From the sequence record NC_052660.1: a stretch of 64,000 nucleotides of DNA; one strand, given 5' to 3'. Below are positions 7,586 to 58,008 of this stretch, piece after piece. The DNA comes from Escherichia phage tuntematon. The notes under the pieces are model-generated. The model searched no databases. It was not told the origin of the DNA and saw nothing but the letters and a program-made list of their open reading frames with translations. Position 1 is the stretch's first letter. The number at the start of each line of letters is the position of its first letter. The position numbers were made by a program, and so were the translations under genes.

Positions 7586-7720
7586 TTAAAACCAGGTGCC
7601 AACCGTTTCCAATAGGTCACTGACTACCAGGACAACATTGATCAGCACATATTCAACCATGAAAGGGATAAGCGCCAGTGTCGCTACTATGATCCCCATT
7701 GTGATGATTACCTTTCTCAT
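7586..7720 (-). CDS. candidate 44-aa small membrane protein
   Basis: Hand-translated MRKVIITMGIIVATLALIPFMVEYVLINVVLVVSDLLETVGTWF; start 2 nt after stop of 7723..8007; not in ORF track. Confidence 0.35.
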   Translation of the reverse strand: MRKVIITMGIIVATLALIPFMVEYVLINVVLVVSDLLETVGTWF

Positions 7721-7722
7721 GG

Positions 7723-8007
7723 TTAGCGGTTTACGTGGGCTTTACCGTTTACGGTCATCGGTATGGCCTCAAGGTCTGGATCTTCCTTAAGGTCGCGCGA
7801 AAGCTCACCGCAGCGGATACCCTCGAATCCGTAGTACTCTGTTGTGCCGTCCTGGAAAGTTTTAGCGGCAAGGCATAGGCGATAATTAACACCGATCCGG
7901 TTTACCGCGTTGATATCGGTTAACGTGATGGATTTAGGCAACTCCTTAGCCATTACAGGCGTGTTAATACCAACAACCAGGGCAACTACTGCGATCATCT
8001 TTTTCAT
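7723..8007 (-). CDS. secreted or periplasmic protein (signal peptide)
   Basis: N-terminus MKKMIAVVALVVGINTPVMA looks like a Sec signal peptide. Confidence 0.6.
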   Translation of the reverse strand: MKKMIAVVALVVGINTPVMAKELPKSITLTDINAVNRIGVNYRLCLAAKTFQDGTTEYYGFEGIRCGELSRDLKEDPDLEAIPMTVNGKAHVNR

Positions 8008-8035
8008 GTGTCTATCCTCTTCCTATTGCGTTTAA

Positions 8036-8051
8036 TAGGGCGTTACCGCCC
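8036..8051 (-). other. intercistronic GC stem-loop (no promoter)
   Basis: agggcg-ttac-cgccct between genes 8062..8298 and 7723..8007; no T-run. Confidence 0.4.
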
Positions 8052-8061
8052 TGCTTAAAGT

Positions 8062-8298
8062 TTATTGATTGATGTTATAATGAAAGTTATTTTCTTCAAT
8101 AGCTTTTAAAATAAAAGCTGTGATCGCTTTCGTGTCTACTTGTTCGAACGTATCAGAATAGCACCAATAATAATCATCCCCTACTTTCGGCGGGTAAACC
8201 TGGACAAGGAGATCGCCACCTGGTTGATCTATAAGCTCAACATGCAAGCCGGATGATTCAGCGGTTTTAACGGCGGTTAATACTGTTGCAATACTCAT
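8062..8298 (-). CDS. hypothetical early protein
   Basis: ORF-track ORF. Confidence 0.55.
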   Translation of the reverse strand: MSIATVLTAVKTAESSGLHVELIDQPGGDLLVQVYPPKVGDDYYWCYSDTFEQVDTKAITAFILKAIEENNFHYNINQ

Positions 8299-8318
8299 AA
8301 TCTTTTCCTTTCTGATGT

Positions 8319-8334
8319 GGGGCGTTGCCGCCCC
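8319..8334 (-). other. intercistronic GC stem-loop (no promoter)
   Basis: ggggcg-ttgc-cgcccc between 8343..8642 and 8062..8298. Confidence 0.4.
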
Positions 8335-8342
8335 TTTGTTGA

Positions 8343-8642
8343 TTAGATCGCTGTTTCCAGTAGTTCGGCTAACGTCTTACCGCCTGATAGTTGGTCTAAC
8401 GTTTGCTCTTCTGGCAAGAAATTAGCTGATATTAATCCGACTTGATTCCCTTTGTGCCAATTAGCTTGACGGATGATTCCATCCTTTAAGGATTTTACCG
8501 CCATTGTGCAACCGTCGCCAAATGATTCATTTTTATGATCCATCACTTCATAAGCGCCCAGTTTGCTGCTGTTAGGCACCATTAACGCGAATACATCACC
8601 AACAACCAGTTTTTCTACGGTAACAATAGCGATAGTTTCCAT
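8343..8642 (-). CDS. hypothetical early protein
   Basis: ORF-track ORF; RBS GAGGAAAAC. Confidence 0.6.
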   Translation of the reverse strand: METIAIVTVEKLVVGDVFALMVPNSSKLGAYEVMDHKNESFGDGCTMAVKSLKDGIIRQANWHKGNQVGLISANFLPEEQTLDQLSGGKTLAELLETAI

Positions 8643-8660
8643 TTTGTTTTCCTCATTATC

Positions 8661-8717
8661 GGCGGCACCATTGCCGCCCTACGTGGTAAATAATACCATA
8701 TTGGGGATCGGTGTCAA
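8661..8717 (-). promoter_or_regulatory. PeSL-like promoter + leader stem-loop
   Basis: -35 TTGACA (rc 8712-8717), -10 TATTAT (rc 8690-8695), hairpin ggcggca-ccat-tgccgcc 8661-8678; near-identical copies at 15840 and 17370. Confidence 0.65.
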
Positions 8718-8723
8718 TACTTT

Positions 8724-9110
8724 TTATTCAATATAAATCAAATTATCTTCACCGATGTAAGCCGACACGTTCGGCATAAACTTAGCTGCATTGGTTAGGC
8801 GGTTGGCGGTGTTAGTGGTGTATATTTCAGTGCGATCCCAAAAGCCTACGCCGTGACCGTTACGGGTAAAATGTAAATCATTCCCGATCTGGTTGGCTGT
8901 AGCGCCGTCGCTCATCGCCTCAGAGATAGCGGCATCATTGGCATCACAAAACGCCGCAACGTCACGAATGATCCGTTGATGGGCTTGATCTGAAAATTCA
9001 TAATCAGTCATGTCATCTATAAAATTACCTTCATGATCCCTGGCTGATTCAGCAAAAATAAAGGCTTCTTTATAACCGTTGATGATTTCAATAATGATTT
9101 CTGTTTTCAT
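8724..9110 (-). CDS. hypothetical early protein
   Basis: ORF-track ORF; ATGA overlap with upstream gene. Confidence 0.6.
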   Translation of the reverse strand: MKTEIIIEIINGYKEAFIFAESARDHEGNFIDDMTDYEFSDQAHQRIIRDVAAFCDANDAAISEAMSDGATANQIGNDLHFTRNGHGVGFWDRTEIYTTNTANRLTNAAKFMPNVSAYIGEDNLIYIE

Positions 9111-9322
9111 GCTGTACGCTCGACAATAATAATAGTTTGCGGGATCTCGTTTTCTACTACTAACAAGGCTTTTTTCTGTGTAATAGATATTTTAACACGT
9201 TGTAAAGTAGCGGTGAAATCTTTCATTTCATTATGCGCGGACTTCGTGCAATGCCAGATCTCAGGCTTACCAACTTGTAAGCCGCGTAAAAATTCCGTTT
9301 TGCCTGTTTTGTTCGTGATCAT
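9107..9322 (-). CDS. hypothetical early protein
   Basis: Start moved to ATG (MITNKTGK) with RBS AAGGTGA; ORF track used upstream TTG at 9340. Confidence 0.5.
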   Translation of the reverse strand: MITNKTGKTEFLRGLQVGKPEIWHCTKSAHNEMKDFTATLQRVKISITQKKALLVVENEIPQTIIIVERTA

Positions 9323-9332
9323 TTGTTTCACC

Positions 9333-9437
9333 TTATCCAATACCGTGGGAAGATAGGATCATGTTAGCCATAGTTGCAATCACTCCAACCGATAACGCCA
9401 GGCCAACCACTGCAACCGTGAAAATTTTCTCTAACAT
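9333..9437 (-). CDS. 34-aa hydrophobic peptide
   Basis: ORF-track ORF 9333..9536 reads through the PeSL hairpin; real start taken as ATG 33 codons in (MLEKIFTVAVVGLALSV...). Confidence 0.4.
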   Translation of the reverse strand: MLEKIFTVAVVGLALSVGVIATMANMILSSHGIG

Positions 9438-9456
9438 GATTCTACCCTCATTAGTA

Positions 9457-9517
9457 GGCGTTGCACCATTGCCCCGCCCTACGTAATACACTTTACTAGA
9501 TAACAAATTATTGTCAA
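9457..9517 (-). promoter_or_regulatory. PeSL-like promoter + degenerate leader hairpin
   Basis: -35 TTGACA (rc 9512-9517), -10 TAAAGT (rc 9490-9495), degenerate hairpin 9457-9478. Confidence 0.5.
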
Positions 9518-9520
9518 GCT

Positions 9521-9658
9521 TTATTTTACTTCCCAAACGGAAAATTCGCTGCCTGTTGGGATCATCTTTTTAATCTTGTTTGCTGCCGCTACCAGGTCAA
9601 CGGCTTGCACTGTAATAATATAACCAATTGTCGAGGCTGTTGCGTTGAAAGTTTTCAT
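9521..9658 (-). CDS. candidate 45-aa protein
   Basis: Hand-translated MKTFNATASTIGYIITVQAVDLVAAANKIKKMIPTGSEFSVWEVK; RBS AAAGGGTAA; not in ORF track. Confidence 0.4.
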   Translation of the reverse strand: MKTFNATASTIGYIITVQAVDLVAAANKIKKMIPTGSEFSVWEVK

Positions 9659-9678
9659 TATATTACCCTTTAATACAG

Positions 9679-9696
9679 GCGGGATTAATCCCGCCT
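9679..9696 (-). other. intercistronic GC stem-loop
   Basis: ggcggga-ttaa-tcccgcc between 9703.. and 9521..9658. Confidence 0.4.
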
Positions 9697-9702
9697 TGTT
9701 GA

Positions 9703-9873
9703 TTACTCTTCATCGTCGCCGTTATAGTATTCAATGCCGTTTTCATCGGTTACGGTGATGTTAACGCCACCGATAGCAACACGATCACGGGCAAACGTCA
9801 TAGCTTCATTTAAATCTTCAGACCAAAAAATATTGTGACCTTTGCGCGATACATAAAACATAGTCGGGATCAT
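9703..9873 (-). CDS. hypothetical early protein (57 aa)
   Basis: ORF-track ORF 9703..9957 translates the PeSL hairpin; start moved to ATG 28 codons in (MIPTMFYV...). Confidence 0.5.
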   Translation of the reverse strand: MIPTMFYVSRKGHNIFWSEDLNEAMTFARDRVAIGGVNITVTDENGIEYYNGDDEE

Positions 9874-9894
9874 GATTTGTTTCTCTTCTGTTGT

Positions 9895-9957
9895 GAGCGG
9901 TGGACCATTCCGCCGCTCTATGTAATAAACTTTACTACGTTGTTTGCCTACTGTCAA
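9895..9957 (-). promoter_or_regulatory. PeSL-like promoter + leader stem-loop
   Basis: -35 TTGACA (rc 9952-9957), 17-nt spacer, -10 TAAAGT (rc 9929-9934), hairpin 9895-9918. Confidence 0.6.
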
Positions 9958-9958
9958 A

Positions 9959-10243
9959 TTATTTTTTAATGTTTTGCCCTACAAAATTGATCACTTCCTT
10001 AAGCTGTTTCTCAGTCATGATCGTGCCTGGTAGTTCCTCTTTGATTTCTTCCGGTAAATAGATATTACCGCGCCAGGTTAACAAACAACCGTTTTGATCT
10101 TCGCAGATAGAATAAGAAAACATCCACTCGCAATCATTTTCAAGCTCCCAAAAACACAAAAAGTCTTCTTTCCCTAAGTTTTCAACGGTTAAACATAATC
10201 CGCGACGTGCTGCATAATTAGTTAGGCTTTTTGTTATTTTCAT
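9959..10243 (-). CDS. hypothetical early protein (94 aa)
   Basis: Start moved 17 codons in (MKITKSLTNY); the ORF-track N-terminus is hairpin-encoded. Confidence 0.55.
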   Translation of the reverse strand: MKITKSLTNYAARRGLCLTVENLGKEDFLCFWELENDCEWMFSYSICEDQNGCLLTWRGNIYLPEEIKEELPGTIMTEKQLKEVINFVGQNIKK

Positions 10244-10262
10244 GATTTTTCTCTCTTCTTGT

Positions 10263-10320
10263 GAGCGGCACCATTGCCGCCCTACAAGATACATATTATC
10301 AGACTAGGCGGACTTGTCAA
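10263..10320 (-). promoter_or_regulatory. PeSL-like promoter + leader stem-loop
   Basis: -35 TTGACA (rc 10315-10320), -10 TAATAT (rc 10293-10298), hairpin gcggca-ccat-tgccgc 10265-10280. Confidence 0.65.
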
Positions 10321-10321
10321 A

Positions 10322-10432
10322 CTATTTTTTCTTTTTCTTTGCTTCCAACCGTCTAAGGTTACGGCTTGACTTATTGCGCAAGGCGCTTAGATCGTCGTAC
10401 CCTTTCCATGCTTGCATATCTTTCGGATTCAT
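10322..10432 (-). CDS. 36-aa Lys-rich small protein
   Basis: Internal ATG (MNPKDMQAWKGY...KKKKK) with RBS AAGGGGGA; the upstream part of ORF-track ORF 10322..10594 overlaps gene 10443..10721. Confidence 0.4.
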   Translation of the reverse strand: MNPKDMQAWKGYDDLSALRNKSSRNLRRLEAKKKKK

Positions 10433-10442
10433 GTTATCCCCC

Positions 10443-10721
10443 TTAACGGTTATAAACATTATGGATGGCTTCAAAGGCAAGATGACCATAAGCCGCCAAA
10501 TCGGGATTGATCCAAGCGTTATCCAACATCGTTTCAAGGACTGTGGAATCATCGTATAAAGCATCATAGAAATCTGCACGGATGATCGTTTCAATGTCGT
10601 CCGGTGTTAGTTTGTCGTTCAACTTGCACACTGTTTCAACGTCAACACCAATTTTCCAATTTTGTAAATTAGTGGTTAACATTGTTTTCATTTCTTCGGT
10701 TGTTAATTTAACGATGGTCAT
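10443..10721 (-). CDS. hypothetical early protein
   Basis: ORF-track ORF starting right after PeSL unit. Confidence 0.6.
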   Translation of the reverse strand: MTIVKLTTEEMKTMLTTNLQNWKIGVDVETVCKLNDKLTPDDIETIIRADFYDALYDDSTVLETMLDNAWINPDLAAYGHLAFEAIHNVYNR

Positions 10722-10742
10722 GATTTTTTCTCTCTTCTGTTA

Positions 10743-10800
10743 GGCGGGGCGCTTGTCGCCCCTATGTGATACATCTTATCAGGTTGATTCAGCTTGTCAA
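10743..10800 (-). promoter_or_regulatory. PeSL-like promoter + leader stem-loop
   Basis: -35 TTGACA (rc 10795-10800), -10 TAAGAT (rc 10773-10778), hairpin ggggcg-cttgt-cgcccc 10743-10762; flanks near-identical to unit at 10263. Confidence 0.6.
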
Positions 10801-10801
10801 A

Positions 10802-10963
10802 CTATTTGTTAGCCGGATTATATGCCAGGACCGCGCCACTTGCTTTCACGCTTTCCGCTTCATAGTTGCGCAGATCGTTTTCTGTAAGATTGAGCGCGAT
10901 CACTTCCTCGATCTCAACGTCAGCGGCAAGGGCGATCTCTTTGATAATATCTGTTGTTTTCAT
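10802..10963 (-). CDS. hypothetical early protein (53 aa)
   Basis: Start moved to ATG 13 codons in (MKTTDIIKEI) with RBS AAGGTG. Confidence 0.5.
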   Translation of the reverse strand: MKTTDIIKEIALAADVEIEEVIALNLTENDLRNYEAESVKASGAVLAYNPANK

Positions 10964-10973
10964 GGTGTGCACC

Positions 10974-11093
10974 TTATAAGATGATTGATAAGATAGTGAC
11001 AACGAAAGCGATTATACTGATGGCAAATGTCATCTTTTTACCTTCGGATACTGCCGGATTCTCTACCGTGTATTCTACTGTGTACTTGCTCAT
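10974..11093 (-). CDS. candidate 39-aa membrane-anchored peptide
   Basis: Hand-translated MSKYTVEYTVENPAVSEGKKMTFAISIIAFVVTILSIIL; RBS GAGAGGA; not in ORF track. Confidence 0.4.
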   Translation of the reverse strand: MSKYTVEYTVENPAVSEGKKMTFAISIIAFVVTILSIIL

Positions 11094-11115
11094 CGTGTAA
11101 TCCTCTCGTTTGCTT

Positions 11116-11172
11116 TGGGAACTATTCCCGCCGCCCTATGAATTAAATATACACTATCTCAAAATGATTGCA
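11116..11172 (-). promoter_or_regulatory. PeSL-like promoter + leader stem-loop
   Basis: -35 TTGCAA (11167-11172), -10 TATATT (rc 11145-11150), hairpin gggaa-cta-ttccc 11116-11128. Confidence 0.55.
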
Positions 11173-11190
11173 AGCCTTTTTCTAAATTAT

Positions 11191-11475
11191 TTATGCAGTA
11201 AACAAACCATCATTTACAACGGCGGCGATGATCTCCCGTGCCATTGATTCAGGGAAAGGGGCGCTATAGTCCTGGCTTGTCTCGTCGGTATCAGTGATCC
11301 AATGATAAGCTAACGAGTAAAAGCCTTTACTAACTGTTTTCAGTGAGATGATGATCACTCGGTCAAGCTTATTGGTGAATGTTGCCGTTAATGTGTTACC
11401 CTCCTGCGTCATGTTGGACAAGTAAGCGGGATCATTAATCAGGGAAAACATTAGTACGGTGTTAGCTTTACTCAT
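11191..11475 (-). CDS. hypothetical early protein (94 aa)
   Basis: Start moved 10 codons in (MSKANTVLMF). Confidence 0.55.
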   Translation of the reverse strand: MSKANTVLMFSLINDPAYLSNMTQEGNTLTATFTNKLDRVIIISLKTVSKGFYSLAYHWITDTDETSQDYSAPFPESMAREIIAAVVNDGLFTA

Positions 11476-11495
11476 GATTGCATCCTCAAAGGGGC

Positions 11496-11550
11496 GCGGC
11501 ACCATTGCCGCCCTACACGATAACTATAACACAATGTAAAACAGGATCAA
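11496..11550 (-). promoter_or_regulatory. PeSL-like promoter + leader stem-loop
   Basis: -35 TTGATC (rc 11545-11550), -10 TATAGT (rc 11523-11528), hairpin gcggca-ccat-tgccgc 11496-11511. Confidence 0.6.
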
Positions 11551-11753
11551 CCTTTATTTTTCCACGGTGTCAGCTTGTTAATCATTGGTGATAAATAACG
11601 TTTACCAACGTAAAACAGCACGCCAACTGATGCAACGGCGGCGATCTCATGTAAGGAGGAAGGACGCGCGGTGTCATAGTAGGTACCGATAATAGCAATA
11701 GCGGCTACGGCTGCAACGTCGATAATGATTTTTTCTTGTTTTGCGGTGATCAT
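11547..11753 (-). CDS. small membrane protein
   Basis: Hydrophobic stretches AAVAAIAIIGTYY and AAVASVGVLFYVG. Confidence 0.55.
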   Translation of the reverse strand: MITAKQEKIIIDVAAVAAIAIIGTYYDTARPSSLHEIAAVASVGVLFYVGKRYLSPMINKLTPWKNKG

Positions 11754-11772
11754 AATATTTACCTTTTTGTAT

Positions 11773-11831
11773 GGTGGGAACTATTCCCCGCCTGATGTAA
11801 TACAGTTTAACAGGTCCGGTTATGGTGTCAA
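11773..11831 (-). promoter_or_regulatory. PeSL-like promoter + leader stem-loop
   Basis: -35 TTGACA (rc 11826-11831), -10 TAAACT (rc 11804-11809), hairpin 11773-11792. Confidence 0.55.
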
Positions 11832-11837
11832 CCACTT

Positions 11838-12023
11838 TTAAAGATATTTTATACTGATAACGTTTTCCGGTTTAACCTTGTTGTGATGTGCATCAACATA
11901 GATCAAACCATCGTCAGAAAAGCCCAGGATCACGCCCTGCGCAATAAAACCGTATTCGTCACGGTAACGCACGGCTATTTTTAATGTTGCGTTATAGGCT
12001 GTTTTAAGCTCGTTTAAAGTCAT
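11838..12023 (-). CDS. hypothetical early protein
   Basis: ORF-track ORF; RBS GAGGATAAACAAAA. Confidence 0.55.
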   Translation of the reverse strand: MTLNELKTAYNATLKIAVRYRDEYGFIAQGVILGFSDDGLIYVDAHHNKVKPENVISIKYL

Positions 12024-12053
12024 TTTTGTTTATCCTCTACATGTAAAAAGAAA

Positions 12054-12070
12054 GGGCGCTTGGTGCGCCC
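12054..12070 (-). terminator. intrinsic terminator or leader hairpin
   Basis: gggcgc-ttggt-gcgccc followed on minus strand by TTTCTTTTT. Confidence 0.55.
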
Positions 12071-12078
12071 TTGTTATG

Positions 12079-12225
12079 TTAATCCTCTAAATCCATCCAA
12101 TTATATTTGTCACTCTTCCCGCGCTTTGTTTTATTGCGCTTGTCGCCTTTGCGGATCACTTCCTCATTCCAGGCCTTGCGGATCTTGGAAGATTGAATTT
12201 TTTCTGCGCGATTAGATGTGTTCAT
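12079..12225 (-). CDS. candidate 48-aa basic protein
   Basis: Hand-translated MNTSNRAEKIQSSKIRKAWNEEVIRKGDKRNKTKRGKSDKYNWMDLED; RBS AAAGAGGAAAC; not in ORF track. Confidence 0.4.
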   Translation of the reverse strand: MNTSNRAEKIQSSKIRKAWNEEVIRKGDKRNKTKRGKSDKYNWMDLED

Positions 12226-12245
12226 TTTGTTTCCTCTTTATATGA

Positions 12246-12298
12246 GCGGCACCATTGCCGCTATATTGTTAATTTAAACTGTTTTGTAAAATTGTCAA
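12246..12298 (-). promoter_or_regulatory. PeSL-like promoter (weak -10) + leader stem-loop
   Basis: -35 TTGACA (rc 12293-12298), hairpin gcggca-ccat-tgccgc 12246-12261. Confidence 0.5.
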
Positions 12299-12304
12299 GG
12301 TTTA

Positions 12305-12658
12305 TCATTCATAAGAGCAAGCAAGGATCACGCCTGCAATATAAAGCCAATAATTTTCCCTTTCTCGTTGGATTTTATCATCGCTGCTATTCTCTTTAAT
12401 GTATCCCCAGGATGTTAACAAGCGATCAATTTCCCAATATTCGAAAGCGATATTAATGTCTGATGGCAAACCTTGTAACCATGATGCAAGTGCTTTAACA
12501 ATACTATAATTAAAACGTGATTGGTTATCAGGGTACCAGTACTCGGAATTAAAACGGCGCATCAATTCCGCGATCTTCTCTTTTTCGGTTGTAATACCAT
12601 AATCATTAAAATCGATAGCGGCAAGGATGTACTCTTTAATTGCATTTTGTGCTTTCAT
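12305..12658 (-). CDS. hypothetical early protein
   Basis: ORF-track ORF. Confidence 0.6.
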   Translation of the reverse strand: MKAQNAIKEYILAAIDFNDYGITTEKEKIAELMRRFNSEYWYPDNQSRFNYSIVKALASWLQGLPSDINIAFEYWEIDRLLTSWGYIKENSSDDKIQRERENYWLYIAGVILACSYE

Positions 12659-12676
12659 GGTCTTTCTCTCTTTTTA

Positions 12677-12733
12677 GCGGGAACTATTCCCGCCCTATGT
12701 GTAACAGTTTACTGAAAATTAAATCTGTGTCAA
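12677..12733 (-). promoter_or_regulatory. PeSL-like promoter + leader stem-loop
   Basis: -35 TTGACA (rc 12728-12733), -10 TAAACT (rc 12706-12711), hairpin gcgggaa-ctat-tcccgcc 12677-12694. Confidence 0.6.
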
Positions 12734-12736
12734 GTT

Positions 12737-12958
12737 TTATTTTGTTACTACCATTTGGTACCCTGTTTCAATGTTGCTAAACACTGTTATCCCGTCCTGG
12801 CGTTCACTCATTAGCATACAAGGCGCTAACATCCTTTCTACTGCCTTGCACTCGTTGTAAACGGCGGTTATATCTCCTGCTGCCTTGTCTTCTGTAGTAA
12901 ATGTCTCATTTACGTAAACTTGACCAGCGACAACGGTGACAATAGCGAAAGTGATCAT
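12737..12958 (-). CDS. hypothetical early protein
   Basis: ORF-track ORF. Confidence 0.55.
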   Translation of the reverse strand: MITFAIVTVVAGQVYVNETFTTEDKAAGDITAVYNECKAVERMLAPCMLMSERQDGITVFSNIETGYQMVVTK

Positions 12959-13031
12959 GATGTTTTTCTCTTTATGTGTTTCGATTAGTTGATATTACAG
13001 CAATTCGCAGATTAGTTTTTAGCAATTCGTG

Positions 13032-13250
13032 CTATTTACTCATAACAGTATCGAAAACAAATTTTTCTTTGTTGTCAAAGCTCACGTATCCGATTCGACC
13101 ACGCAAGCCGCGAGTAGTGCCGTATTCGTAACCGTCAAGACCTTTAACCTTCCAATCCACGCCCATTAAAACCGCATTATATTTCTGACCAACTACAAAC
13201 GCGCCACCAGTTGATTCAATGCAAACAACTTTAATTTTACGGATTGCCAT
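13032..13250 (-). CDS. hypothetical early protein
   Basis: ORF-track ORF; RBS AGAGAGAAAGAAAA. Confidence 0.55.
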   Translation of the reverse strand: MAIRKIKVVCIESTGGAFVVGQKYNAVLMGVDWKVKGLDGYEYGTTRGLRGRIGYVSFDNKEKFVFDTVMSK

Positions 13251-13288
13251 TTTCTTTCTCTCTTTCTGGTGATTGGTTTCTCTTCTCT

Positions 13289-13312
13289 ATAGCGCCCATT
13301 ATAAGGCGCTAT
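13289..13312 (-). other. intercistronic stem-loop
   Basis: atagcgcc-cattataa-ggcgctat, 8-bp stem. Confidence 0.4.
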
Positions 13313-13328
13313 AACGAAAAGTCAACGA

Positions 13329-13496
13329 TTATTTTTTAAGGCTTAAAGTACCTAACTTGTCAGCGTGACGCAGACCAGGGAAGATCCATTTGCCTGATTC
13401 ATCTTTTACAGGGGCTTTAAGTGTAGCGCCCAGGTTGGCGGCGTTAACTTTACGTGCAACGTTGCGAGCGGCTTCACGGGTAGTAAAAGTAATCAT
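13329..13496 (-). CDS. candidate 55-aa protein
   Basis: Hand-translated MITFTTREAARNVARKVNAANLGATLKAPVKDESGKWIFPGLRHADKLGTLSLKK; not in ORF track. Confidence 0.4.
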   Translation of the reverse strand: MITFTTREAARNVARKVNAANLGATLKAPVKDESGKWIFPGLRHADKLGTLSLKK

Positions 13497-13520
13497 GATG
13501 TTTTCCTCTTCTCTTTGTTA

Positions 13521-13581
13521 GGCGGTGGACCATTCCCCGCCTTGATGTAATACAGTTTACTTTATTTTTGCAGTATTGCAA
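13521..13581 (-). promoter_or_regulatory. PeSL-like promoter + leader stem-loop
   Basis: -35 TTGCAA (13576-13581), -10 TAAACT (rc 13554-13559), hairpin 13521-13541. Confidence 0.55.
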
Positions 13582-13586
13582 GCGTT

Positions 13587-13799
13587 TTATGAAATAATCG
13601 TCAAAGTAAAATTGTAATCACCTGATTGATACAATACCTTGTCACCGAACGTTCCAACACGTTTAACATTGCAATATATACCCATAACACTTTTTACATC
13701 TTTGATATTCTTCACGCCTGTAATATCTTTATTAAAATGATCGTGATCAGAAAATAAAACTTGTTTTGCATTTTTTAACAGTGTGCGGATATTAGCCAT
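13587..13799 (-). CDS. hypothetical early protein
   Basis: ORF-track ORF. Confidence 0.55.
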   Translation of the reverse strand: MANIRTLLKNAKQVLFSDHDHFNKDITGVKNIKDVKSVMGIYCNVKRVGTFGDKVLYQSGDYNFTLTIIS

Positions 13800-13822
13800 C
13801 GTGATAATCTCTCTTCTGTTGT

Positions 13823-13880
13823 GAGCGGCACCATTGCCGCCCTACGTAATATAGTTTACTCTTTTTCTTTCCCGTGTCAA
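13823..13880 (-). promoter_or_regulatory. PeSL-like promoter + leader stem-loop
   Basis: -35 TTGACA (rc 13875-13880), -10 TAAACT (rc 13853-13858), hairpin gcggca-ccat-tgccgc 13825-13840. Confidence 0.65.
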
Positions 13881-13889
13881 CAATCTTTT

Positions 13890-14117
13890 TCAGATTAATT
13901 CATCCAGGCATAACAGGCGATCAACGTTGAGATCGGTTAGGCTGATGGTTGGCACCTGGTAGGATTCGATGTACTCGACGCTTGCATATTCCCCAAAATT
14001 AGCAATAGCCCACTTATTCAAGATCTCACATACATCATTAATCTTTTTGTTTGTTACAACTGCAATAACCTGGGAAGTGCCAACGGTGCCGGATACGCGA
14101 ACAATATTGATAGCCAT
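13890..14117 (-). CDS. hypothetical early protein
   Basis: ORF-track ORF. Confidence 0.55.
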   Translation of the reverse strand: MAINIVRVSGTVGTSQVIAVVTNKKINDVCEILNKWAIANFGEYASVEYIESYQVPTISLTDLNVDRLLCLDELI

Positions 14118-14139
14118 AATCTTTAATCTCTCTGTTGTT

Positions 14140-14199
14140 GGCGGGAAACCACTTCCCGCCCTATGTGATACATCTTACACTAATTTTAAACGTTGTCAA
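14140..14199 (-). promoter_or_regulatory. PeSL-like promoter + leader stem-loop
   Basis: -35 TTGACA (rc 14194-14199), -10 TAAGAT (rc 14172-14177), hairpin ggcgggaa-accac-ttcccgcc 14140-14160. Confidence 0.65.
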
Positions 14200-14208
14200 C
14201 TGTTTTTA

Positions 14209-14448
14209 TTACATTCCAACCATCGCGGCGCGGATCGCAGTAGTGCTATATTTGAAACCGTCTGGCGTTTTATCTTGTCCAGTTTGTTCCAGAAAAAGCA
14301 TCATATCCCGCGCAGCATCATTACGATTAGTATTAGCGGCGATAAATTCTTTCGCCAACCGATATAATGATTCATCGTTATTAATCCAAAGGCTTACATT
14401 CCAATGAGTTTTGTTTTTGTGACCTAAGAACATTTTTGATTTAGCCAT
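14209..14448 (-). CDS. hypothetical early protein
   Basis: ORF-track ORF. Confidence 0.55.
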   Translation of the reverse strand: MAKSKMFLGHKNKTHWNVSLWINNDESLYRLAKEFIAANTNRNDAARDMMLFLEQTGQDKTPDGFKYSTTAIRAAMVGM

Positions 14449-14472
14449 GATATTAATCTCTTTTTCAGTGAG

Positions 14473-14531
14473 GCGGGAACTATTCCCGCTCTCTATGTAA
14501 TACAGTTTACTCTTTTTATTCGTGCTGTCAA
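14473..14531 (-). promoter_or_regulatory. PeSL-like promoter + leader stem-loop
   Basis: -35 TTGACA (rc 14526-14531), -10 TAAACT (rc 14504-14509), hairpin gcgggaa-cta-ttcccgc 14473-14489. Confidence 0.6.
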
Positions 14532-14537
14532 TGCTTT

Positions 14538-14903
14538 TTATAAATCTTTTTTACGTTTAACATCGCTTGCATGACTGTATACAGCGATCCCATTATCACG
14601 GCAAAAACGGGAAAGGTAGGCATAATTTGAAAACTCTTTACCTTCCAGGTTGATAACCTTGCTAAACTCTTCTAGGGCAACGGTATCAAAATGATCCCCA
14701 TAGCCATATTGAAACGGAACGTTAACTACTTCGATCAGTTTACCGCCGATCTCAACGTCAACCATCAAAGAGAAATAAGTATTACCATAAGACTTTTGAA
14801 ACCAGCGACGGGCGCTAATATGTACCGCTTCAATGCTGGATAGTTCAATTTTAGCAGTGTTAGCCAGGGTAGCATAAGCAGAAACATTGATATTTTTAGC
14901 CAT
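14538..14903 (-). CDS. hypothetical early protein
   Basis: ORF-track ORF. Confidence 0.6.
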   Translation of the reverse strand: MAKNINVSAYATLANTAKIELSSIEAVHISARRWFQKSYGNTYFSLMVDVEIGGKLIEVVNVPFQYGYGDHFDTVALEEFSKVINLEGKEFSNYAYLSRFCRDNGIAVYSHASDVKRKKDL

Positions 14904-14950
14904 AGTCTTTAATCTCTTTTGATTAGTTAGGAGTATTCCCGATAAAAGTT

Positions 14951-14988
14951 ATTATGCTTATACTATCACTCATTGTCAATAGTATAAG
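14951..14988 (-). promoter_or_regulatory. early promoter overlapped by 10-bp inverted repeat (operator candidate)
   Basis: -35 TTGACA (rc 14974-14979), -10 CATAAT (rc 14951-14956); inverted repeat cttatactat 14957-14966 / atagtataag 14979-14988. Confidence 0.5.
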
Positions 14989-14998
14989 ACTAAAACTT

Positions 14999-15178
14999 TT
15001 AACGATAATCGTTATAGGCTTTATTGACCTGGCGAATGTAACATTCGAAAGCAAGATCAATGTATTCGTATTCACGCACATAATCACCATAGGTCACTAC
15101 ATACATTTTTAAAGTTTCCTCATAAGCCAGGAGGATCGAATCTAAACCTATAATCTCAGTTTTTGCAATGATAGCCAT
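14999..15178 (-). CDS. candidate 59-aa protein
   Basis: Hand-translated MAIIAKTEIIGLDSILLAYEETLKMYVVTYGDYVREYEYIDLAFECYIRQVNKAYNDYR; not in ORF track. Confidence 0.4.
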   Translation of the reverse strand: MAIIAKTEIIGLDSILLAYEETLKMYVVTYGDYVREYEYIDLAFECYIRQVNKAYNDYR

Positions 15179-15198
15179 GATGTTAACCTTTTATTGTT

Positions 15199-15255
15199 GG
15201 CGGCACCATTGCCGCCCTACGTGATAAACTATACCAGAATTTTAAACAGTGTCAA
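15199..15255 (-). promoter_or_regulatory. PeSL-like promoter + leader stem-loop
   Basis: -35 TTGACA (rc 15250-15255), -10 TATAGT (rc 15228-15233), hairpin ggcggca-ccat-tgccgcc 15199-15216. Confidence 0.65.
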
Positions 15256-15261
15256 CCGTTT

Positions 15262-15707: not shown

Positions 15708-15716
15708 GAATATTTT

Positions 15717-55004: not shown

Positions 55005-57601
55005 TGAGTAAGTTTACATGGGATATTGAAGCAAACGGATTGTTGAATAATGACACTATTGATTATTTAGCTAGTCCTTATCGTCTCAAAGACACATTTC
55101 AAATGCACTGTATTGTCTTAGAGAACCATGAAACAGGAGAAATAGTAGCTTTCCACGATGGCCCTAAATACATCTTTGATGGGCGTCCTTATGAAGAGTC
55201 AGATGGTAAATACACATATGTTCTTAAAGAGTATGTGGCGCAAGATTACACACATTTTCAACTAAAAGATTTCCCAGATTTTATTAATCATGAAGGTTAT
55301 TTTAAAGACAAGCCTGAATATCTGGTTGAAATGGCTGTGGCTCACAACGGTATCAACTACGACTGGTTGGCTACAAAACTGTTTTATGGATTAGATTACA
55401 GTGTTAAATATAATACGTGGGGCAAAAATAAGGTAAAACTTATTGACTCCTTGATTTTGAGTAAAGTGTTAAACCCAGATCGAAAGATTGAGGGCAAATC
55501 AGGACATAGCTTGGCAGCACTTTCTCGAAAAGCAGGTGGTGATGTAAAAATAGATTTCCGTAAAGAGATTCCAGAAGAAGATCGATTTAAGACTTTTGCT
55601 GCGGATATGCTTTATTACTGTATCTATGACAACAAAGCCAATACGAGCGTATATAATTACCTTATGGAAGAATGGGGTGATTATGATAAATGGGAAGGTC
55701 CATTTGAACTTGAACAACGTGTAGCAGACATTATTACACGTCAGGAACACCGTGGATTTGCTTTTAACATGAAACAAGCAGAAGAGAACCTTGCTTTTTT
55801 GGATGCAGAAATGGAGCGTCTTCGTTTACTCGTTGAGCCTATTTTGCCACCTAAACCAGCAACAAAAGGTTATCTTAAGGCTTTTATTCCACCTAAGTTG
55901 CAAATTAAAAAGAACTTAGAGCCAACTAACCATATGATCAATTTTGCTAAGAAACATGATGGTCATTTGGAAGAGAGGGATGGCGATTGGTGGTTAGTTA
56001 TGTTGGGGAAAGAGTGGAAACTGCCAGTTGCAGCAGATGAACCTCTATGTGATCCTAACATTCCTGCAACATTGAACGATACAACCCATATTAAAAACTG
56101 GCTTGTAGGATTAGGTTGGGTACCATCTGAATATAAAGATAAAGACTTGACTCTTAAATCTGGCACCAAGATTAAAAAGAGCGAGGAAGAACTTCAGAAA
56201 GGTATTCGAGCTTACGTTGAGCAAACTCTATCTTCTAATTTTTGTCAGGATCGTTGTGATCATCTGGAGTGCACACCGGAAACCCTGGAAAGGAAGATTC
56301 AAGAGCGTATAGCAAAAGGTAAAGGTCGCGGTCTTAAAGTATTGACTAACCCATGTTTTACCAAAGGTCAGGAAAAAGAAATTTGTCCTAACCTGCAAGC
56401 TTTGGGTGAGAAGTTTCCTTATGCTACACAGATTGTAGAATACTTAACGTATAAGCATCGTAGGAACTCTATTTTAGGTGGCGGTGCTGATTGGGAAGAA
56501 GATGAAGAAGATCAAGAATACGATAAAGGTTTCTTAGCCGCAGTAAGGGCGGATGGGCGTATTCCTACCCCAGCCGCTACATGTGATGCTGCAACCTCTC
56601 GTATGAAGCATAGATCTGTAGCTAATATTCCTCGTGTCACATCTTTGTTTGGATGGGAGATGCGTAACTTGTTTGGTGTAGAGGTTCCTAAATACTTCCA
56701 GATCGGCTACGATTTCGACTCTTTGGAAGCAAAAATTGAATCACACTACTGTTGGCGGTACGAGCCGGAGCCACACGAATATTGTAACGCTCTGTTGTTA
56801 GAGAAACCTAACGATGTTCACACAATGATGGCAAAACGTATCACTGAAACTATTGGACGTAAATTTGAACGTAGTCCTGCTAAATCTGTTAAGTATGGTA
56901 TTACCTATGGTGCACAAGCCGACAAGGTTGCTAAAACAATTGGTAGCGATAAGTTTACAGGTCAATTGGTGTTTGATGCTTTCTGGGAAGCTGCATTCCC
57001 ATTGGCGCGTCTTAAAGAACGTTTAAACGATTTCTGGGTTAAGACTGGTAAACAATATGTTTTGGGTATTGACGGTCGTAAGGTTCCTACTCGTTCTGCT
57101 CACGCGATTCTTAACTCTCTATTCCAAAGCGGCGGGGTTATCTGTGCTAAACGTGCAATGGTTATTTATGACGACATGATCGAAGAAGAAGGGCTAAGTG
57201 TTGACTTCTTTAAAGATGACTGGAAGAATAAAGACTTCGTGCAACAAATGATCGCATATCACGATGAAGCCCAGCTTGAAGTTTCTCGTAACCTTGTAGA
57301 ATTTAAATGGTTTTCACCTGAATCATTAGGTTGGAAGAAAGTAGACGATCCTGAAGAACAAAAGAAAATTGATAAAGAATGCCTTGCTAAAGTTGAAGAA
57401 TGGAAGCATAATAAGGAAAAAGAGACGGGACAAATTTGGGCTAACATTCATGAATCTCCCAAAGGTGGATGGTTTACAGCCTATAGTCGGGCAGGTGAAC
57501 TTGCTGCTTTAGCTGTTACTAAGGCTGGAGAATTTTACAATCTTAATGTTCAGCTTACTGCCGGATATGATGTGGGTAACTCCTGGGCGTCCTGTCACTA
57601 G
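55004..57601 (+). CDS. family A DNA polymerase with 3'-5' exonuclease domain (T7 gp5-like)
   Basis: N-terminus FTWDIEANGLL...FHDGPKYIFDG parallels T7 gp5 IVSDIEANALL...FHNGHKYDVPA; 865 aa; GTG start overlapping MTase stop. Confidence 0.9.
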   Translation: MSKFTWDIEANGLLNNDTIDYLASPYRLKDTFQMHCIVLENHETGEIVAFHDGPKYIFDGRPYEESDGKYTYVLKEYVAQDYTHFQLKDFPDFINHEGYFKDKPEYLVEMAVAHNGINYDWLATKLFYGLDYSVKYNTWGKNKVKLIDSLILSKVLNPDRKIEGKSGHSLAALSRKAGGDVKIDFRKEIPEEDRFKTFAADMLYYCIYDNKANTSVYNYLMEEWGDYDKWEGPFELEQRVADIITRQEHRGFAFNMKQAEENLAFLDAEMERLRLLVEPILPPKPATKGYLKAFIPPKLQIKKNLEPTNHMINFAKKHDGHLEERDGDWWLVMLGKEWKLPVAADEPLCDPNIPATLNDTTHIKNWLVGLGWVPSEYKDKDLTLKSGTKIKKSEEELQKGIRAYVEQTLSSNFCQDRCDHLECTPETLERKIQERIAKGKGRGLKVLTNPCFTKGQEKEICPNLQALGEKFPYATQIVEYLTYKHRRNSILGGGADWEEDEEDQEYDKGFLAAVRADGRIPTPAATCDAATSRMKHRSVANIPRVTSLFGWEMRNLFGVEVPKYFQIGYDFDSLEAKIESHYCWRYEPEPHEYCNALLLEKPNDVHTMMAKRITETIGRKFERSPAKSVKYGITYGAQADKVAKTIGSDKFTGQLVFDAFWEAAFPLARLKERLNDFWVKTGKQYVLGIDGRKVPTRSAHAILNSLFQSGGVICAKRAMVIYDDMIEEEGLSVDFFKDDWKNKDFVQQMIAYHDEAQLEVSRNLVEFKWFSPESLGWKKVDDPEEQKKIDKECLAKVEEWKHNKEKETGQIWANIHESPKGGWFTAYSRAGELAALAVTKAGEFYNLNVQLTAGYDVGNSWASCH

Positions 57602-57618
57602 TTAACTCATTGTTTTAT

Positions 57619-57640
57619 AAGGGGCTTCTGCCCCTTTATA
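57619..57640 (+). terminator. rho-independent terminator
   Basis: aaggggc-ttct-gcccctt then TATA. Confidence 0.7.
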
Positions 57641-57649
57641 GGAGGAGAT

Positions 57650-57841
57650 ATGCATTACGATTTAGATTGTCTTGGTATGCCTTACCTACCAGATGAATTT
57701 GAAGGTGAAGAAGAACGTGAATGGGACGATGGGGATATCCGTTGTTGGTCTTGTGGTAAAGATATGTCTTATGAACAACATATGCACAATGATGGTTTCT
57801 GCATACATTGTTATAATGAAATTGATCTGGAGGAAGATTAA
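57650..57841 (+). CDS. small zinc-ribbon protein
   Basis: CWSCG...CIHCYN; RBS GGAGGAG. Confidence 0.5.
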   Translation: MHYDLDCLGMPYLPDEFEGEEEREWDDGDIRCWSCGKDMSYEQHMHNDGFCIHCYNEIDLEED

Positions 57842-58008
57842 TGGGAAATGGTATCATGATTTGCTATAAAATTGTGCGTATTGTCGGAGACGAAGTTACC
57901 ACTCGGTATTTTATGATAGAGTCTCAAGCCGATGAGGTTTACAATGACTGGCTTGAAAAAGGTGGATACGATTTTGTATCTAAAGAAACTTTCCGTTTAG
58001 AGGTATAA
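57841..58008 (+). CDS. candidate 55-aa protein
   Basis: Hand-translated MGNGIMICYKIVRIVGDEVTTRYFMIESQADEVYNDWLEKGGYDFVSKETFRLEV; TAATG overlap; not in ORF track. Confidence 0.4.
   Translation: MGNGIMICYKIVRIVGDEVTTRYFMIESQADEVYNDWLEKGGYDFVSKETFRLEV

What the first reader, a model, noticed from the sequence alone, without database searches (positions are those of the whole stretch)
7586..58008. At least 14 plausible genes under 60 aa missing from the ORF track, several hydrophobic
Hand translation of gaps that have good RBSs and start/stop coupling gives small ORFs not in the supplied track: 7586..7720, 9333..9437, 9521..9658, 10322..10432, 10974..11093, 12079..12225, 13329..13496, 14999..15178, 15717..15812, 22277..22441, 25423..25572, 27311..27484, 43833..44006, 57841..58008. 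Five are mostly hydrophobic single-helix peptides (7586, 9333, 10974, 15717, 22277), a class often involved in host membrane targeting or superinfection exclusion. About twelve ORF-track entries also start too far upstream because they translate through the PeSL hairpin.
Basis: seen in the sequence. Interest (0 to 1): 0.5.

Follow-up and report, generated by a model that had tools for sequence, protein, structure and literature searches.

The report
Fourteen short, already-annotated phage genes
The 14 short open reading frames are real, conserved protein-coding genes of a phAPEC8-like E. coli phage, but they were missed only because the first-stage ORF list stopped at 60 amino acids, and nearly all are already in public databases as proteins of unknown function.

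Summary
All 14 intervals are ATG-to-stop ORFs on the local coding strand, and they fill gaps between genes without overlap. Thirteen have a Shine-Dalgarno site; 7586 has none and relies on a 2-nt stop/start junction. The window is a Phapecoctavirus (phAPEC8-like myovirus). In related phages, the start codon, reading frame and RBS are conserved, and ORF length mostly so. Every ORF shows in-frame purifying selection (omega 0.05-0.44; pooled 0.22, p=5e-65; off-frame controls 1.4).

None of this is new. Ten of the 14 are annotated in the 2012 phAPEC8 type genome and the other four in other GenBank relatives. Thirteen match PHROG families end to end. Thirteen exact peptide sequences are already in NCBI/UniRef. 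They were absent from the ORF track because of its 60-aa floor.

- Five are hydrophobic as claimed, but 22277 and probably 7586 have two hydrophobic spans, not one.
- 12079 belongs to the T7 gene 1.1 family (Pfam PF08200).
- 9333 (34 aa) and 15717 (31 aa) lack a CDS in roughly half of the annotated relatives sampled.
- I find 6 over-long same-strand starts that read through the hairpin, not about twelve.

Functions remain unknown. Small early host-takeover or membrane proteins is my inference, not a result.

The parts
7586..7720 (-). 44-aa hydrophobic peptide gene (probably two hydrophobic spans). No SD; the ATG lies 2 nt after the stop of 7723..8007.
   Evidence: ORF. Intact in 9 relatives. 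omega 0.36, p=4e-4. phrog_16005 matched 1-44 of 44. Annotated in EP57 and PsgM04F; phAPEC8_0015 uses an internal start. Weakest intrinsic scores of the 14.
9333..9437 (-). 34-aa single-TM peptide gene behind its own promoter (-35 at 9517), hairpin and RBS.
   Evidence: omega 0.19, p=0.001. phrog_14631. Found in 148 phage records at 80-97% aa identity across Phapecoctavirus, Justusliebigvirus and Vequintavirus, with no CDS under the match in about half of the annotated rows sampled, and in phi92 and phAPEC8.
9521..9658 (-). 45-aa accessory gene, present in only a subset of relatives.
   Evidence: phrog_29854. Found in 53 records including Vequintaviruses. omega 0.24, p=0.003. Seunavirus FENT2 keeps an intact 45-codon homolog.
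10322..10432 (-). 36-aa basic protein with a poly-Lys tail. The C-terminus varies in length at an A-run.
   Evidence: Equals phAPEC8_007. phrog_31652. omega 0.19, p=0.008. Stop at codon 36, 42, 43 or 49 in relatives.
10974..11093 (-). 39-aa protein with a C-terminal TM helix, behind a TTGCAA-type promoter and hairpin.
   Evidence: Equals phAPEC8_004. phrog_10979 'membrane protein'. omega 0.44, p=0.047. RefSeq name 'membrane protein'.
12079..12225 (-). 48-aa basic protein, member of the T7 gene 1.1 family, behind its own promoter-hairpin cassette.
   Evidence: Pfam PF08200, 49.8 bits against a cutoff of 21. phrog_2490. Equals phAPEC8_00269 and homologous to phi92 gp237. omega 0.34, p=2e-6.
13329..13496 (-). 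55-aa basic soluble protein, 96% identical to its phi92 homolog in another genus.
   Evidence: Equals phAPEC8_00266 and homologous to phi92 gp235. phrog_13689. omega 0.14, p=1e-11.
14999..15178 (-). 59-aa acidic protein carried on a cassette-flanked insertion module that is absent from some relatives.
   Evidence: phrog_9374. omega 0.23, p=1.5e-8. Annotated in EP57, PsgM04F and phiWec181. Indel boundary lies in the cassette.
15717..15812 (-). 31-aa peptide with a C-terminal TM helix. The true start is the RBS-ATG at 15812, not the ATG at 15851 in the hairpin loop.
   Evidence: No PHROG match. Found in 105 records, with no CDS under the match in about 40% of the annotated rows sampled. omega 0.28, p=1e-4. 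KKP 3954 annotates 96 nt; EP57 annotates 135 nt. Hairpin geometry.
22277..22441 (-). 54-aa membrane protein with two TM-length spans, coupled to its neighbours (gaps of 9 and 11 nt).
   Evidence: Equals phAPEC8_00250. phrog_27459. omega 0.18, p=7e-4. One deposited member of its 90% cluster is named 'TMhelix containing protein'. Hydropathy.
25423..25572 (+). 49-aa protein with ATGA start/stop overlaps on both sides.
   Evidence: Equals phAPEC8_00240 and homologous to phi92 gp213. omega 0.14, p=5e-10.
27311..27484 (+). 57-aa protein with a strong SD (AAGGAGG).
   Evidence: Equals phAPEC8_00233. phrog_2381. omega 0.17, p=8e-13.
43833..44006 (+). 57-aa very acidic protein (net charge -16) in the TelA/TerD/TerC neighbourhood, translationally coupled.
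   Evidence: Equals phAPEC8_00207. phrog_1997. DUF7167 at 23.2 bits, just below the 24.4 cutoff. omega 0.05, p=5e-6.
57841..58008 (+). 55-aa protein downstream of the DNA polymerase gene, translationally coupled.
   Evidence: Equals phAPEC8_00185. phrog_22931. omega 0.11, p=2e-11.
6300..17200 (-). Array of about 20 repeated early cassettes. Each has an A-rich tract, TTGACA-N16-TAAxxT, a GC hairpin (GGGCGGCAATGGTGCCGCC or GGCGGGAATAGTTCCCGCC), an AG-rich SD and an ATG. These cassettes drive many of the small genes.

Best explanation
The 14 intervals are genuine short protein-coding genes of a phAPEC8-like (Phapecoctavirus, Stephanstirmvirinae) E. coli myovirus.

Ten lie in the leftward early accessory block. 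There, almost every gene or gene pair has its own near-consensus host sigma70 promoter, followed by a conserved GC-rich 5'-UTR hairpin and a Shine-Dalgarno site. This layout should allow host RNA polymerase to express them immediately after infection.

Four lie in tightly packed rightward operons (nucleotide metabolism, tellurite-resistance-like genes, replication). They are translated by start/stop coupling.

The products fall into these groups:
- Five small membrane peptides: 9333, 10974 and 15717 with one TM helix; 22277 and probably 7586 with two hydrophobic spans.
- One T7 gp1.1-family basic protein (12079).
- Several small soluble acidic or basic proteins.

Shown: they are conserved, under purifying selection and already catalogued. 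Inferred: they act as small binders or modulators of host proteins and the host inner membrane during takeover (probability about 0.4-0.5). They were absent from the first-stage ORF track only because that track has a 60-aa minimum.
For: - The ORFs exist at the stated coordinates.
- The genome is identified as a Phapecoctavirus.
- In up to 16 related loci, start codon, frame, stop position (variable mainly in 10322 and 15717) and RBS are conserved; the few exceptions are isolated frameshifts or shifted starts.
- dN/dS is 0.05-0.44 for each of the 14. Pooled it is 0.216 (p=4.5e-65), against 1.39 in off-frame controls.
- Codon-usage scores exceed decoys.
- SD strength exceeds background (p=1e-6).
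- An independent gene-finder pass recovers 13 of 14.
- Thirteen of 14 match PHROGs end to end.
- 12079 matches Pfam PF08200 above its gathering threshold.
- All 14 are annotated as a CDS in at least one GenBank relative, ten of them in phAPEC8.
- Thirteen of 14 exact sequences are in NCBI/UniRef.
- Promoter/hairpin/RBS or coupling context.
- Hydropathy.
Against: - No expression data (RNA, ribosome footprints or peptides) were available for any of them.
- 7586 has no SD and a decoy-like codon score. Its support rests on conservation, omega 0.36 and the PHROG match.
- 10974 has only marginal selection statistics (p=0.047).
- dN/dS was computed from counts of unique variant codons, not on a phylogeny, so the p-values are approximate.
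- The functional inference rests only on genomic position, size and composition.
- No homolog with a tested function was found. T7 gp1.1 itself has no known function.
Confidence: 0.9

Rival explanations
1. The ORFs are chance open frames in non-coding spacers between real genes.
For: ORFs of 30-60 codons are abundant: 202 ORFs of 25 aa or more lie in 16 kb. 7586 has a decoy-like codon score and no SD.
Against: Frame and start codon are conserved across genera, and ORF length mostly so. In-frame omega is 0.05-0.44 against about 1.4 off-frame. SD sites are enriched. The ORFs fill gaps exactly on the coding strand.
Confidence: 0.02
2. They are leader peptides or upstream ORFs. On this view the act of translation regulates the downstream gene (coupling, attenuation) and the peptide sequence does not matter.
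For: Several are tightly coupled to the downstream gene with overlaps or gaps of -8 to +11 nt. 9333 and 15717 are very short (31-34 aa).
Against: Amino-acid sequences are under purifying selection (omega 0.05-0.44). Sequences stay 80-97% identical across subfamilies. Six have their own promoter and are followed by another promoter, so they are not leaders of the next gene.
Confidence: 0.04
3. They are decaying fragments (pseudogenes) of longer ancestral genes.
For: The C-terminus of 10322 varies in length (36-49 codons). Isolated frameshifts occur in EP57 (10974) and SKA64 (57841), and BI-EHEC has a disrupted 13329 start.
Against: For most of the 14, length is the same across relatives, and the PHROG profiles have exactly the same length as the peptides. 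No longer homolog was found apart from start mis-annotations. The purifying selection argues against decay. The frameshifts are single-genome events, consistent with sequencing errors.
Confidence: 0.03
4. The hydrophobic peptides are lysis-related (holin, antiholin, spanin or similar) rather than early membrane effectors or superinfection-exclusion factors.
For: Small one- or two-TM phage proteins are often holins or antiholins (general knowledge). 22277 has a two-TM topology.
Against: They lie in the leftward block that is dense in host-type sigma70 promoters, not next to the endolysin (SleB-like, near 47.2-47.8 kb). No Pfam holin or spanin family was hit. At 31-44 aa with one TM helix, three of them are shorter than typical holins.
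Confidence: 0.1

Closest known systems
Annotated hypothetical proteins of Escherichia phage phAPEC8 (JX561091) and relatives, and their PHROG families
   Same: Same genes. phAPEC8_004, 007, 0015 (shorter start), 00185, 00207, 00233, 00240, 00250, 00266 and 00269 are syntenic with, and 68-100% identical to, the candidates (mostly above 90%; phAPEC8_00233 only 68%). Thirteen of 14 match a PHROG profile end to end.
   Different: 9333, 9521, 14999 and 15717 are not annotated in phAPEC8 itself. 9521 and 14999 are absent from it, and 9333 and 15717 are present but uncalled. 15717 has no PHROG. The exact 7586 sequence is not deposited.
Bacteriophage T7 gene 1.1 protein (Pfam PF08200, Phage_1_1)
   Same: 12079 matches the family HMM at 49.8 bits (cutoff 21) over 40 of 40 profile positions. 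It is a small, very basic, early-expressed protein.
   Different: It sits in a myovirus rather than a T7-like podovirus. It has its own sigma70 promoter cassette rather than lying in the T7 1.1-1.2 operon. The family's function is unknown; the only report is synergy with Ocr in host shut-off (PMC7064336).
T4-type PeSL cassettes (promoter-early stem-loops; Arbiol et al. 2010, PMC2839356)
   Same: Repeated intergenic modules with an A-rich tract, a strong sigma70 promoter, a GC-rich stem-loop, SD and ATG. They flank small ORFan genes in a hyperplastic region. Presence/absence boundaries of 14999 and 9521 fall inside the cassette.
   Different: The phage lineage is different (Stephanstirmvirinae). 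Here the hairpin lies about 8 nt downstream of the -10 box, inside the transcript, with no T-run. A role as a 5'-UTR stabiliser or regulator is therefore at least as likely as a terminator role. Neither recombination nor termination was tested.
Small early 'monkey-wrench' and membrane proteins of model phages (for example lambda Kil, T7 Gp0.4, T4 Imm and Sp; from general knowledge)
   Same: Size class (30-60 aa), early expression from host promoters, non-core distribution, and frequent single TM helix.
   Different: No sequence or family relationship was detected. No functional data exist. This is an analogy only.

Membership tests
Pfam PF08200 Phage_1_1 (T7 gene 1.1 protein), for 12079..12225 | Whole-protein HMM score at or above Pfam's gathering threshold | tested here: met
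   49.8 bits against a cutoff of 21; E=4.9e-13; profile positions 2-40 of 40.
Pfam PF08200 Phage_1_1 (T7 gene 1.1 protein), for 12079..12225 | Genomic context as in T7 (class II early operon, adjacent to gene 1.2, the dGTPase inhibitor) | not tested
   The neighbours (12305..12658 and 11838..12023) were not compared with T7 gp1.2. The gene has its own promoter cassette.
PHROG families of phage proteins (phrog_16005, 14631, 29854, 31652, 10979, 2490, 13689, 9374, 27459, 2381, 1997, 22931) | Significant end-to-end HMM match | tested here: met
   Thirteen of 14 match with E from 1e-9 to 8e-44, most over the full profile length. 25423 matches phrog_2381 only partially (E=1.3e-9).
PHROG families, for 15717..15812 | Significant HMM match | tested here: not met
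   No family at E<=0.01. The exact sequence is nevertheless in NCBI.
Pfam PF23768 DUF7167, for 43833..44006 | Score at or above the gathering threshold | tested here: not met
   23.2 bits against a cutoff of 24.4; E=7.5e-5. Borderline; likely a distant relative.
T4-type PeSL regulatory cassette | Strong sigma70-like early promoter with an upstream AT-rich tract, repeated in intergenic regions of a hyperplastic region | tested here: met
   About 18-20 copies of TTGACA-N16-TAAxxT preceded by A-runs on the - strand between 6.3 and 17.2 kb.
T4-type PeSL regulatory cassette | Adjacent GC-rich stem-loop that acts as a transcription terminator or attenuator | not testable with these tools
   A stable hairpin is present (-9 to -21 kcal/mol). 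It lies downstream of the -10 box and lacks a T-run. Terminator activity needs a reporter assay.
T4-type PeSL regulatory cassette | Cassettes serve as recombination linkers: gene gain or loss boundaries fall within them | tested here: inconclusive
   Two cases examined (14999 against KKP 3954; 9521 against phAPEC8) have boundaries in or next to the cassette. With only two cases and no mini-circle or recombinant data, this is not decisive.
Superinfection-exclusion or membrane-targeting small phage proteins (such as T4 Imm/Sp) | Predicted transmembrane segment | tested here: met
   Kyte-Doolittle 17-residue windows of 2.5-2.9 in 7586, 9333, 10974, 15717 and 22277.
Superinfection-exclusion or membrane-targeting small phage proteins (such as T4 Imm/Sp) | Homology to a characterised exclusion protein, or a demonstrated exclusion phenotype | tested here: not met
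   No Pfam family above threshold. The phenotype cannot be tested here.

The most novel reading that the evidence does not exclude
The small genes are the cargo of a PeSL-like system outside the T4-like phages. Each micro-gene would be an independently transcribed module, and the conserved promoter plus 5'-UTR-hairpin cassette would serve as the homologous linker for module exchange among Phapecoctavirus, Justusliebigvirus and even Vequintavirinae. For example, 9521 and 9333 are 94-98% identical in rV5-like phages. Within that cargo, 9333 is a 34-aa membrane peptide kept in about 150 genomes of three genera, yet uncalled in about half of those sampled. It would be a conserved early membrane effector with a specific host target.
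Probability: 0.3. Interest if true: 0.45.

Novelty: already known. Interest (0 to 1): 0.15.

Why it matters
For the scan, this shows that a 60-aa ORF floor hides about 15% of the genes in this kind of phage: about 19-20 of about 133 genes in this window. It also shows that 'longest ORF' logic puts several starts upstream of a conserved hairpin whose loop contains an ATG.

For phage biology the result is ordinary. Small early ORFans of unknown function are a well-known feature of large lytic phages, and these particular ones are already deposited.

The modest practical value lies in three annotation points:
- Two conserved micro-genes (9333, 15717) are inconsistently annotated across GenBank relatives.
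- Some GenBank start codons are placed in the hairpin loop.
- One homolog of 12079 carries a wrong enzyme name.

Tried and rejected
- IMG/VR scan with a neighbouring 117-aa protein to collect many loci. It returned only one relative, so I used GenBank records instead.
- First exact look-up of the minus-strand peptides used wrongly trimmed coordinates and found nothing. Repeated with literal sequences.
- Paralogy of 25423 and 27311, suggested because both hit phrog_2381. Pairwise BLASTP is not significant (E=0.055), so I do not claim paralogy.
- Rfam scan of the whole window for a known RNA family covering the hairpin: no hits.
- RNAalifold on a MAFFT alignment of 18 hairpin copies. The alignment was not structure-aware and recovered only 4 pairs, so it is uninformative. 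Compensatory stem variants are visible by eye only.
- PDB sequence searches for 43833, 13329, 57841 and 14999: nothing significant (best E=0.13).
- Pfam for the hydrophobic peptides: only a sub-threshold DUF7396 hit for 7586 (E=0.05).
- Structure prediction and the large homology searches were not run. The peptides are tiny, the available alignments are shallow, and the outcome would not change the verdict.
- The FENT2 hit for 9521 first looked spurious because it lies on the strand opposite the annotated CDSs. Translation shows an intact 45-codon homolog with an SD, so it is more likely a real unannotated gene.

Full report
**What the window is.** Megablast of 7000-23000 and 24500-49000 finds hundreds of Escherichia phages of the genus Phapecoctavirus (Stephanstirmvirinae). 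The closest records are EP57 (99%), SKA64 (99.1%), phAPEC8 (96.9%) and KKP 3954 (95%). More distant relatives are phiWec181/190 (about 79% nucleotide identity), PsgM04F (86.5%) and phi92 (Justusliebigvirus). The leftward block around 6-24 kb is mosaic among relatives, with 60-91% coverage. This is typical of an early accessory region.

**Checking the observation.**
- All 14 coordinate pairs translate as ATG..stop ORFs. The first ten lie on the - strand and the last four on the + strand.
- I trained a codon log-odds model on the 35 long ORFs of the window. It places 11 of the 14 above at least 97% of 155 same-length decoy ORFs. The hydrophobic 7586, 10974 and 22277 score lower, as expected from their composition.
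- Anti-SD duplex energies for the 14 starts are much stronger than for 1200 random ATGs (Mann-Whitney p=1e-6). The exception is 7586, which has no SD; its ATG lies 2 nt after the upstream stop.
- Each ORF fits a same-strand gap without overlap. Six of the ten minus-strand ORFs (9333, 10974, 12079, 13329, 14999, 15717) sit directly behind their own promoter, hairpin and RBS.
- The remaining ORFs have junctions of -8 to +11 nt on at least one side.
- A simple gene finder of my own (codon score plus SD plus start codon, greedy and non-overlapping) independently selects 13 of the 14. It misses 7586.

I fetched homologous regions from 16 loci covering 12 genomes, and later four Vequintavirus loci. 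In most relatives that carry a homolog, tblastn shows the ATG, the SD and the frame preserved, and the stop position in most. The exceptions are the poly-Lys C-terminus of 10322, a 31- to 35-codon range in 15717, shifted starts in a few distant homologs, and three single-genome frameshifts or disruptions (EP57 in 10974, SKA64 in 57841, BI-EHEC in 13329). The last three look like sequencing errors.

I counted unique variant codons against Nei-Gojobori site numbers. In-frame omega is 0.05-0.44, with p<0.05 for each of the 14. The weakest is 10974 (p=0.047). 9521 gives 0.24 (p=0.003) using rV5-like homologs. Pooled omega is 0.216 (p=4.5e-65), whereas the two off-frames pooled give 1.39. These are approximate, non-phylogenetic statistics, but the contrast is large. 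The ORFs are protein-coding.

**Are they 'missing'?** Only from the first-stage track.
- The phAPEC8 type genome (2012) annotates CDSs of 120, 111, 147, 168, 165, 150, 174, 174 and 168 nt at the syntenic positions of 10974, 10322, 12079, 13329, 22277, 25423, 27311, 43833 and 57841. It also annotates a 114-nt version of 7586.
- EP57, PsgM04F, KKP 3954, phiWec181 and slur16 annotate 9333, 9521, 14999 and 15717.
- Thirteen of 14 match PHROG profiles end to end. 10974 matches phrog_10979 'membrane protein'. Only 15717 has no PHROG.
- Thirteen of 14 exact peptide sequences are already in NCBI/UniRef, several of them seen on hundreds of contigs.
- The two shortest are inconsistently annotated. 9333 is present in 148 phage records and 15717 in 105. 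In the sampled rows from annotated records, about half (9333) and about 40% (15717) have no CDS under the match. phi92 lacks both, and phAPEC8 lacks 9333.

**What the products look like.**
- 7586, 9333, 10974, 15717 and 22277 are hydrophobic (GRAVY 0.87-1.84).
- 9333 has one TM helix. 10974 and 15717 have a polar N-terminus and a C-terminal TM helix. 22277 has two TM-length spans, and 7586 probably has two, so 'single-helix' is only partly right.
- 12079 is a member of Pfam PF08200, the T7 gene 1.1 protein (49.8 bits against a cutoff of 21). T7 gp1.1 is described as a small protein of unknown function whose co-expression with Ocr shuts off host protein synthesis (PMC7064336).
- 43833 is very acidic (net charge -16) and scores just under threshold for DUF7167.
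- 10322, 12079 and 13329 are strongly basic.
- I found no PDB relatives.

**Regulatory context and the 'PeSL' remark.** On the - strand between about 6.3 and 17.2 kb there are about 20 copies of a cassette. Each consists of an A-rich tract, TTGACA-N16-TAAxxT, about 8 nt, a GC hairpin, an AG-rich SD and an ATG. The hairpin is GGGCGGCAATGGTGCCGCC, GGCGGGAATAGTTCCCGCC or a variant, at -9 to -21 kcal/mol. One further copy precedes the TerC gene on the + strand (39267).

The phAPEC8 record annotates the 5' arm and loop of this hairpin (GTAGGGCGGCAATGGTGCCG) as 'promoter determined with PHIRE'. It separately annotates the true sigma70 site as a 'host promoter (MEME)'.

The T4-type PeSL (Arbiol et al. 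2010, PMC2839356) is similar in composition: a strong sigma70 promoter plus a stem-loop, flanking ORFans. There the stem-loop is described as a terminator. Here it lies in the 5' UTR with no T-run.

Where relatives lack 14999 or 9521, the indel boundaries fall in or beside the cassette. The promoter, hairpin, SD and ATGGCTA are retained and fused to the next gene. This is compatible with cassette-mediated module shuffling, but two cases do not prove it. Rfam has no family for the hairpin.

**Over-long starts.** The hairpin loop CAATGG contains an ATG, and TTG/GTG codons occur upstream of it. With longest-ORF logic, six same-strand entries of 60 aa or more begin in or before the hairpin:
- 17151..17438
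- 15262..15681
- 11191..11505
- 9959..10294
- 9703..9957
- 9333..9536

About six antisense shadow ORFs also cross hairpins. So 'about twelve' is an overcount for genuine genes.

The same error exists in GenBank. EP57 and ETEC-TG annotate 15717 as 44 aa, starting at the loop ATG. A7_1 annotates the 9333 homolog as 52 aa.

**Mechanism.**
- Shown: these are conserved coding genes. Many of the leftward ones have a private host-type promoter, and the rightward ones are translationally coupled in operons.
- Inferred: the leftward genes are expressed by unmodified host RNA polymerase at the start of infection. They would act as small modulators of host proteins or of the inner membrane, as small early proteins do in model phages. 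I rate this at about 0.4-0.5.
- Nothing here distinguishes superinfection exclusion from other membrane roles. A lysis role is less likely given their position away from the endolysin and in the block that is dense in sigma70 promoters.

**Verdict.** The finding mainly exposes the length floor and the start-codon logic of the first-stage ORF track. Interest is low (0.15). The only mildly novel angle is the PeSL-like cassette architecture outside T4-like phages, together with the widely conserved but inconsistently annotated 34-aa and 31-aa membrane peptides.

Noticed in passing
window 6300-17200 (- strand); further copies at 39267-39343 (+) and 17805-17833 (+): About 20 repeated early cassettes, each with an A-tract, TTGACA-N16-TAAxxT, a conserved GC hairpin in the 5' UTR, an AG-rich SD and an ATG. 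The stems show compensatory variants (GGCGGCA..TGCCGCC versus GGCGGGA..TCCCGCC). No Rfam family matches. The layout is PeSL-like but differs from the T4-type PeSL.
   Followed up: partly
L007 (phAPEC8) 556-575, 937-956, 1787-1806, 3202-3221: The features annotated in the phAPEC8 GenBank record as 'promoter determined with PHIRE' are the 5' arm and loop of the hairpin (GTAGGGCGGCAATGGTGCCG), not a promoter. The sigma70 promoter lies immediately upstream.
   Followed up: yes
window 15851, 11505, 10294 (ATGs in or next to the hairpin loop CAATGG): The hairpin loop contains an ATG that seeds false long starts. GenBank records carry the same error: 15717 is annotated as 44 aa in EP57 and ETEC-TG, and the 9333 homolog as 52 aa in A7_1.
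   Followed up: partly
Most are hidden in the ORF track under over-long TTG/GTG starts. 23229..23405 is another two-TM membrane peptide. Several correspond to annotated phAPEC8 genes (005, 009, 00249, 00246).
   Followed up: partly
window 14904-15261 versus L001 7534-7621; window 9438-9702 versus L007 2370-2446: Relatives that lack 14999 or 9521 have the deletion boundary inside or beside the promoter-hairpin-RBS cassette. The cassette is retained and fused to the next gene's ATGGCTA. This suggests cassette-mediated gain and loss of modules.
   Followed up: partly
window ~4292-5890: A stretch of about 1.6 kb with no convincing gene on either strand and lower GC (0.31-0.40). It contains a 24-bp tandem repeat at 4357-4406 and GC hairpins at 5857-5875 and 6422-6440. 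phAPEC8 has a similar unannotated gap (5512-7022), and the rV5 paper reports a 2.6-kb 'non-coding' region.
   Followed up: no
L004 (SKA64) 13078-13224: The 48-aa homolog of 12079 (T7 gp1.1 family) is annotated in SKA64 as 'TDP-4-keto-6-deoxy-D-glucose transaminase'. This is an evident mis-annotation.
   Followed up: yes
window 10322-10340 (3' end of 10322..10432): The gene ends in an A-run encoding KKKKK. In relatives the stop falls at codon 36, 42, 43 or 49, suggesting homopolymer length variation that alters the C-terminus.
   Followed up: no
L002 (EP57) 4123-4240; L005 (SKA64) 2569-2732; L012 (BI-EHEC) 13329 homolog: Single-genome frameshifts or disrupted starts in otherwise conserved small genes (10974 in EP57, 57841 in SKA64, 13329 in BI-EHEC). 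These are probably assembly or sequencing errors that changed the annotated CDS lengths.
   Followed up: no
L021 (Enterobacter phage FENT2) 401-538: An intact 45-codon homolog of 9521 (38% identity) with an SD lies on the strand opposite to the PHANOTATE-called CDSs. It is a likely unannotated gene, and the opposite-strand calls may be spurious.
   Followed up: partly
L017 (slur16), L019 (DrSchubert), L020 (A7_1): The adjacent pair of 9521 and 9333 is syntenic and 94-98% identical at the amino-acid level in rV5-like Vequintavirinae, a different subfamily. This implies recent horizontal exchange of this two-gene stretch.
   Followed up: no
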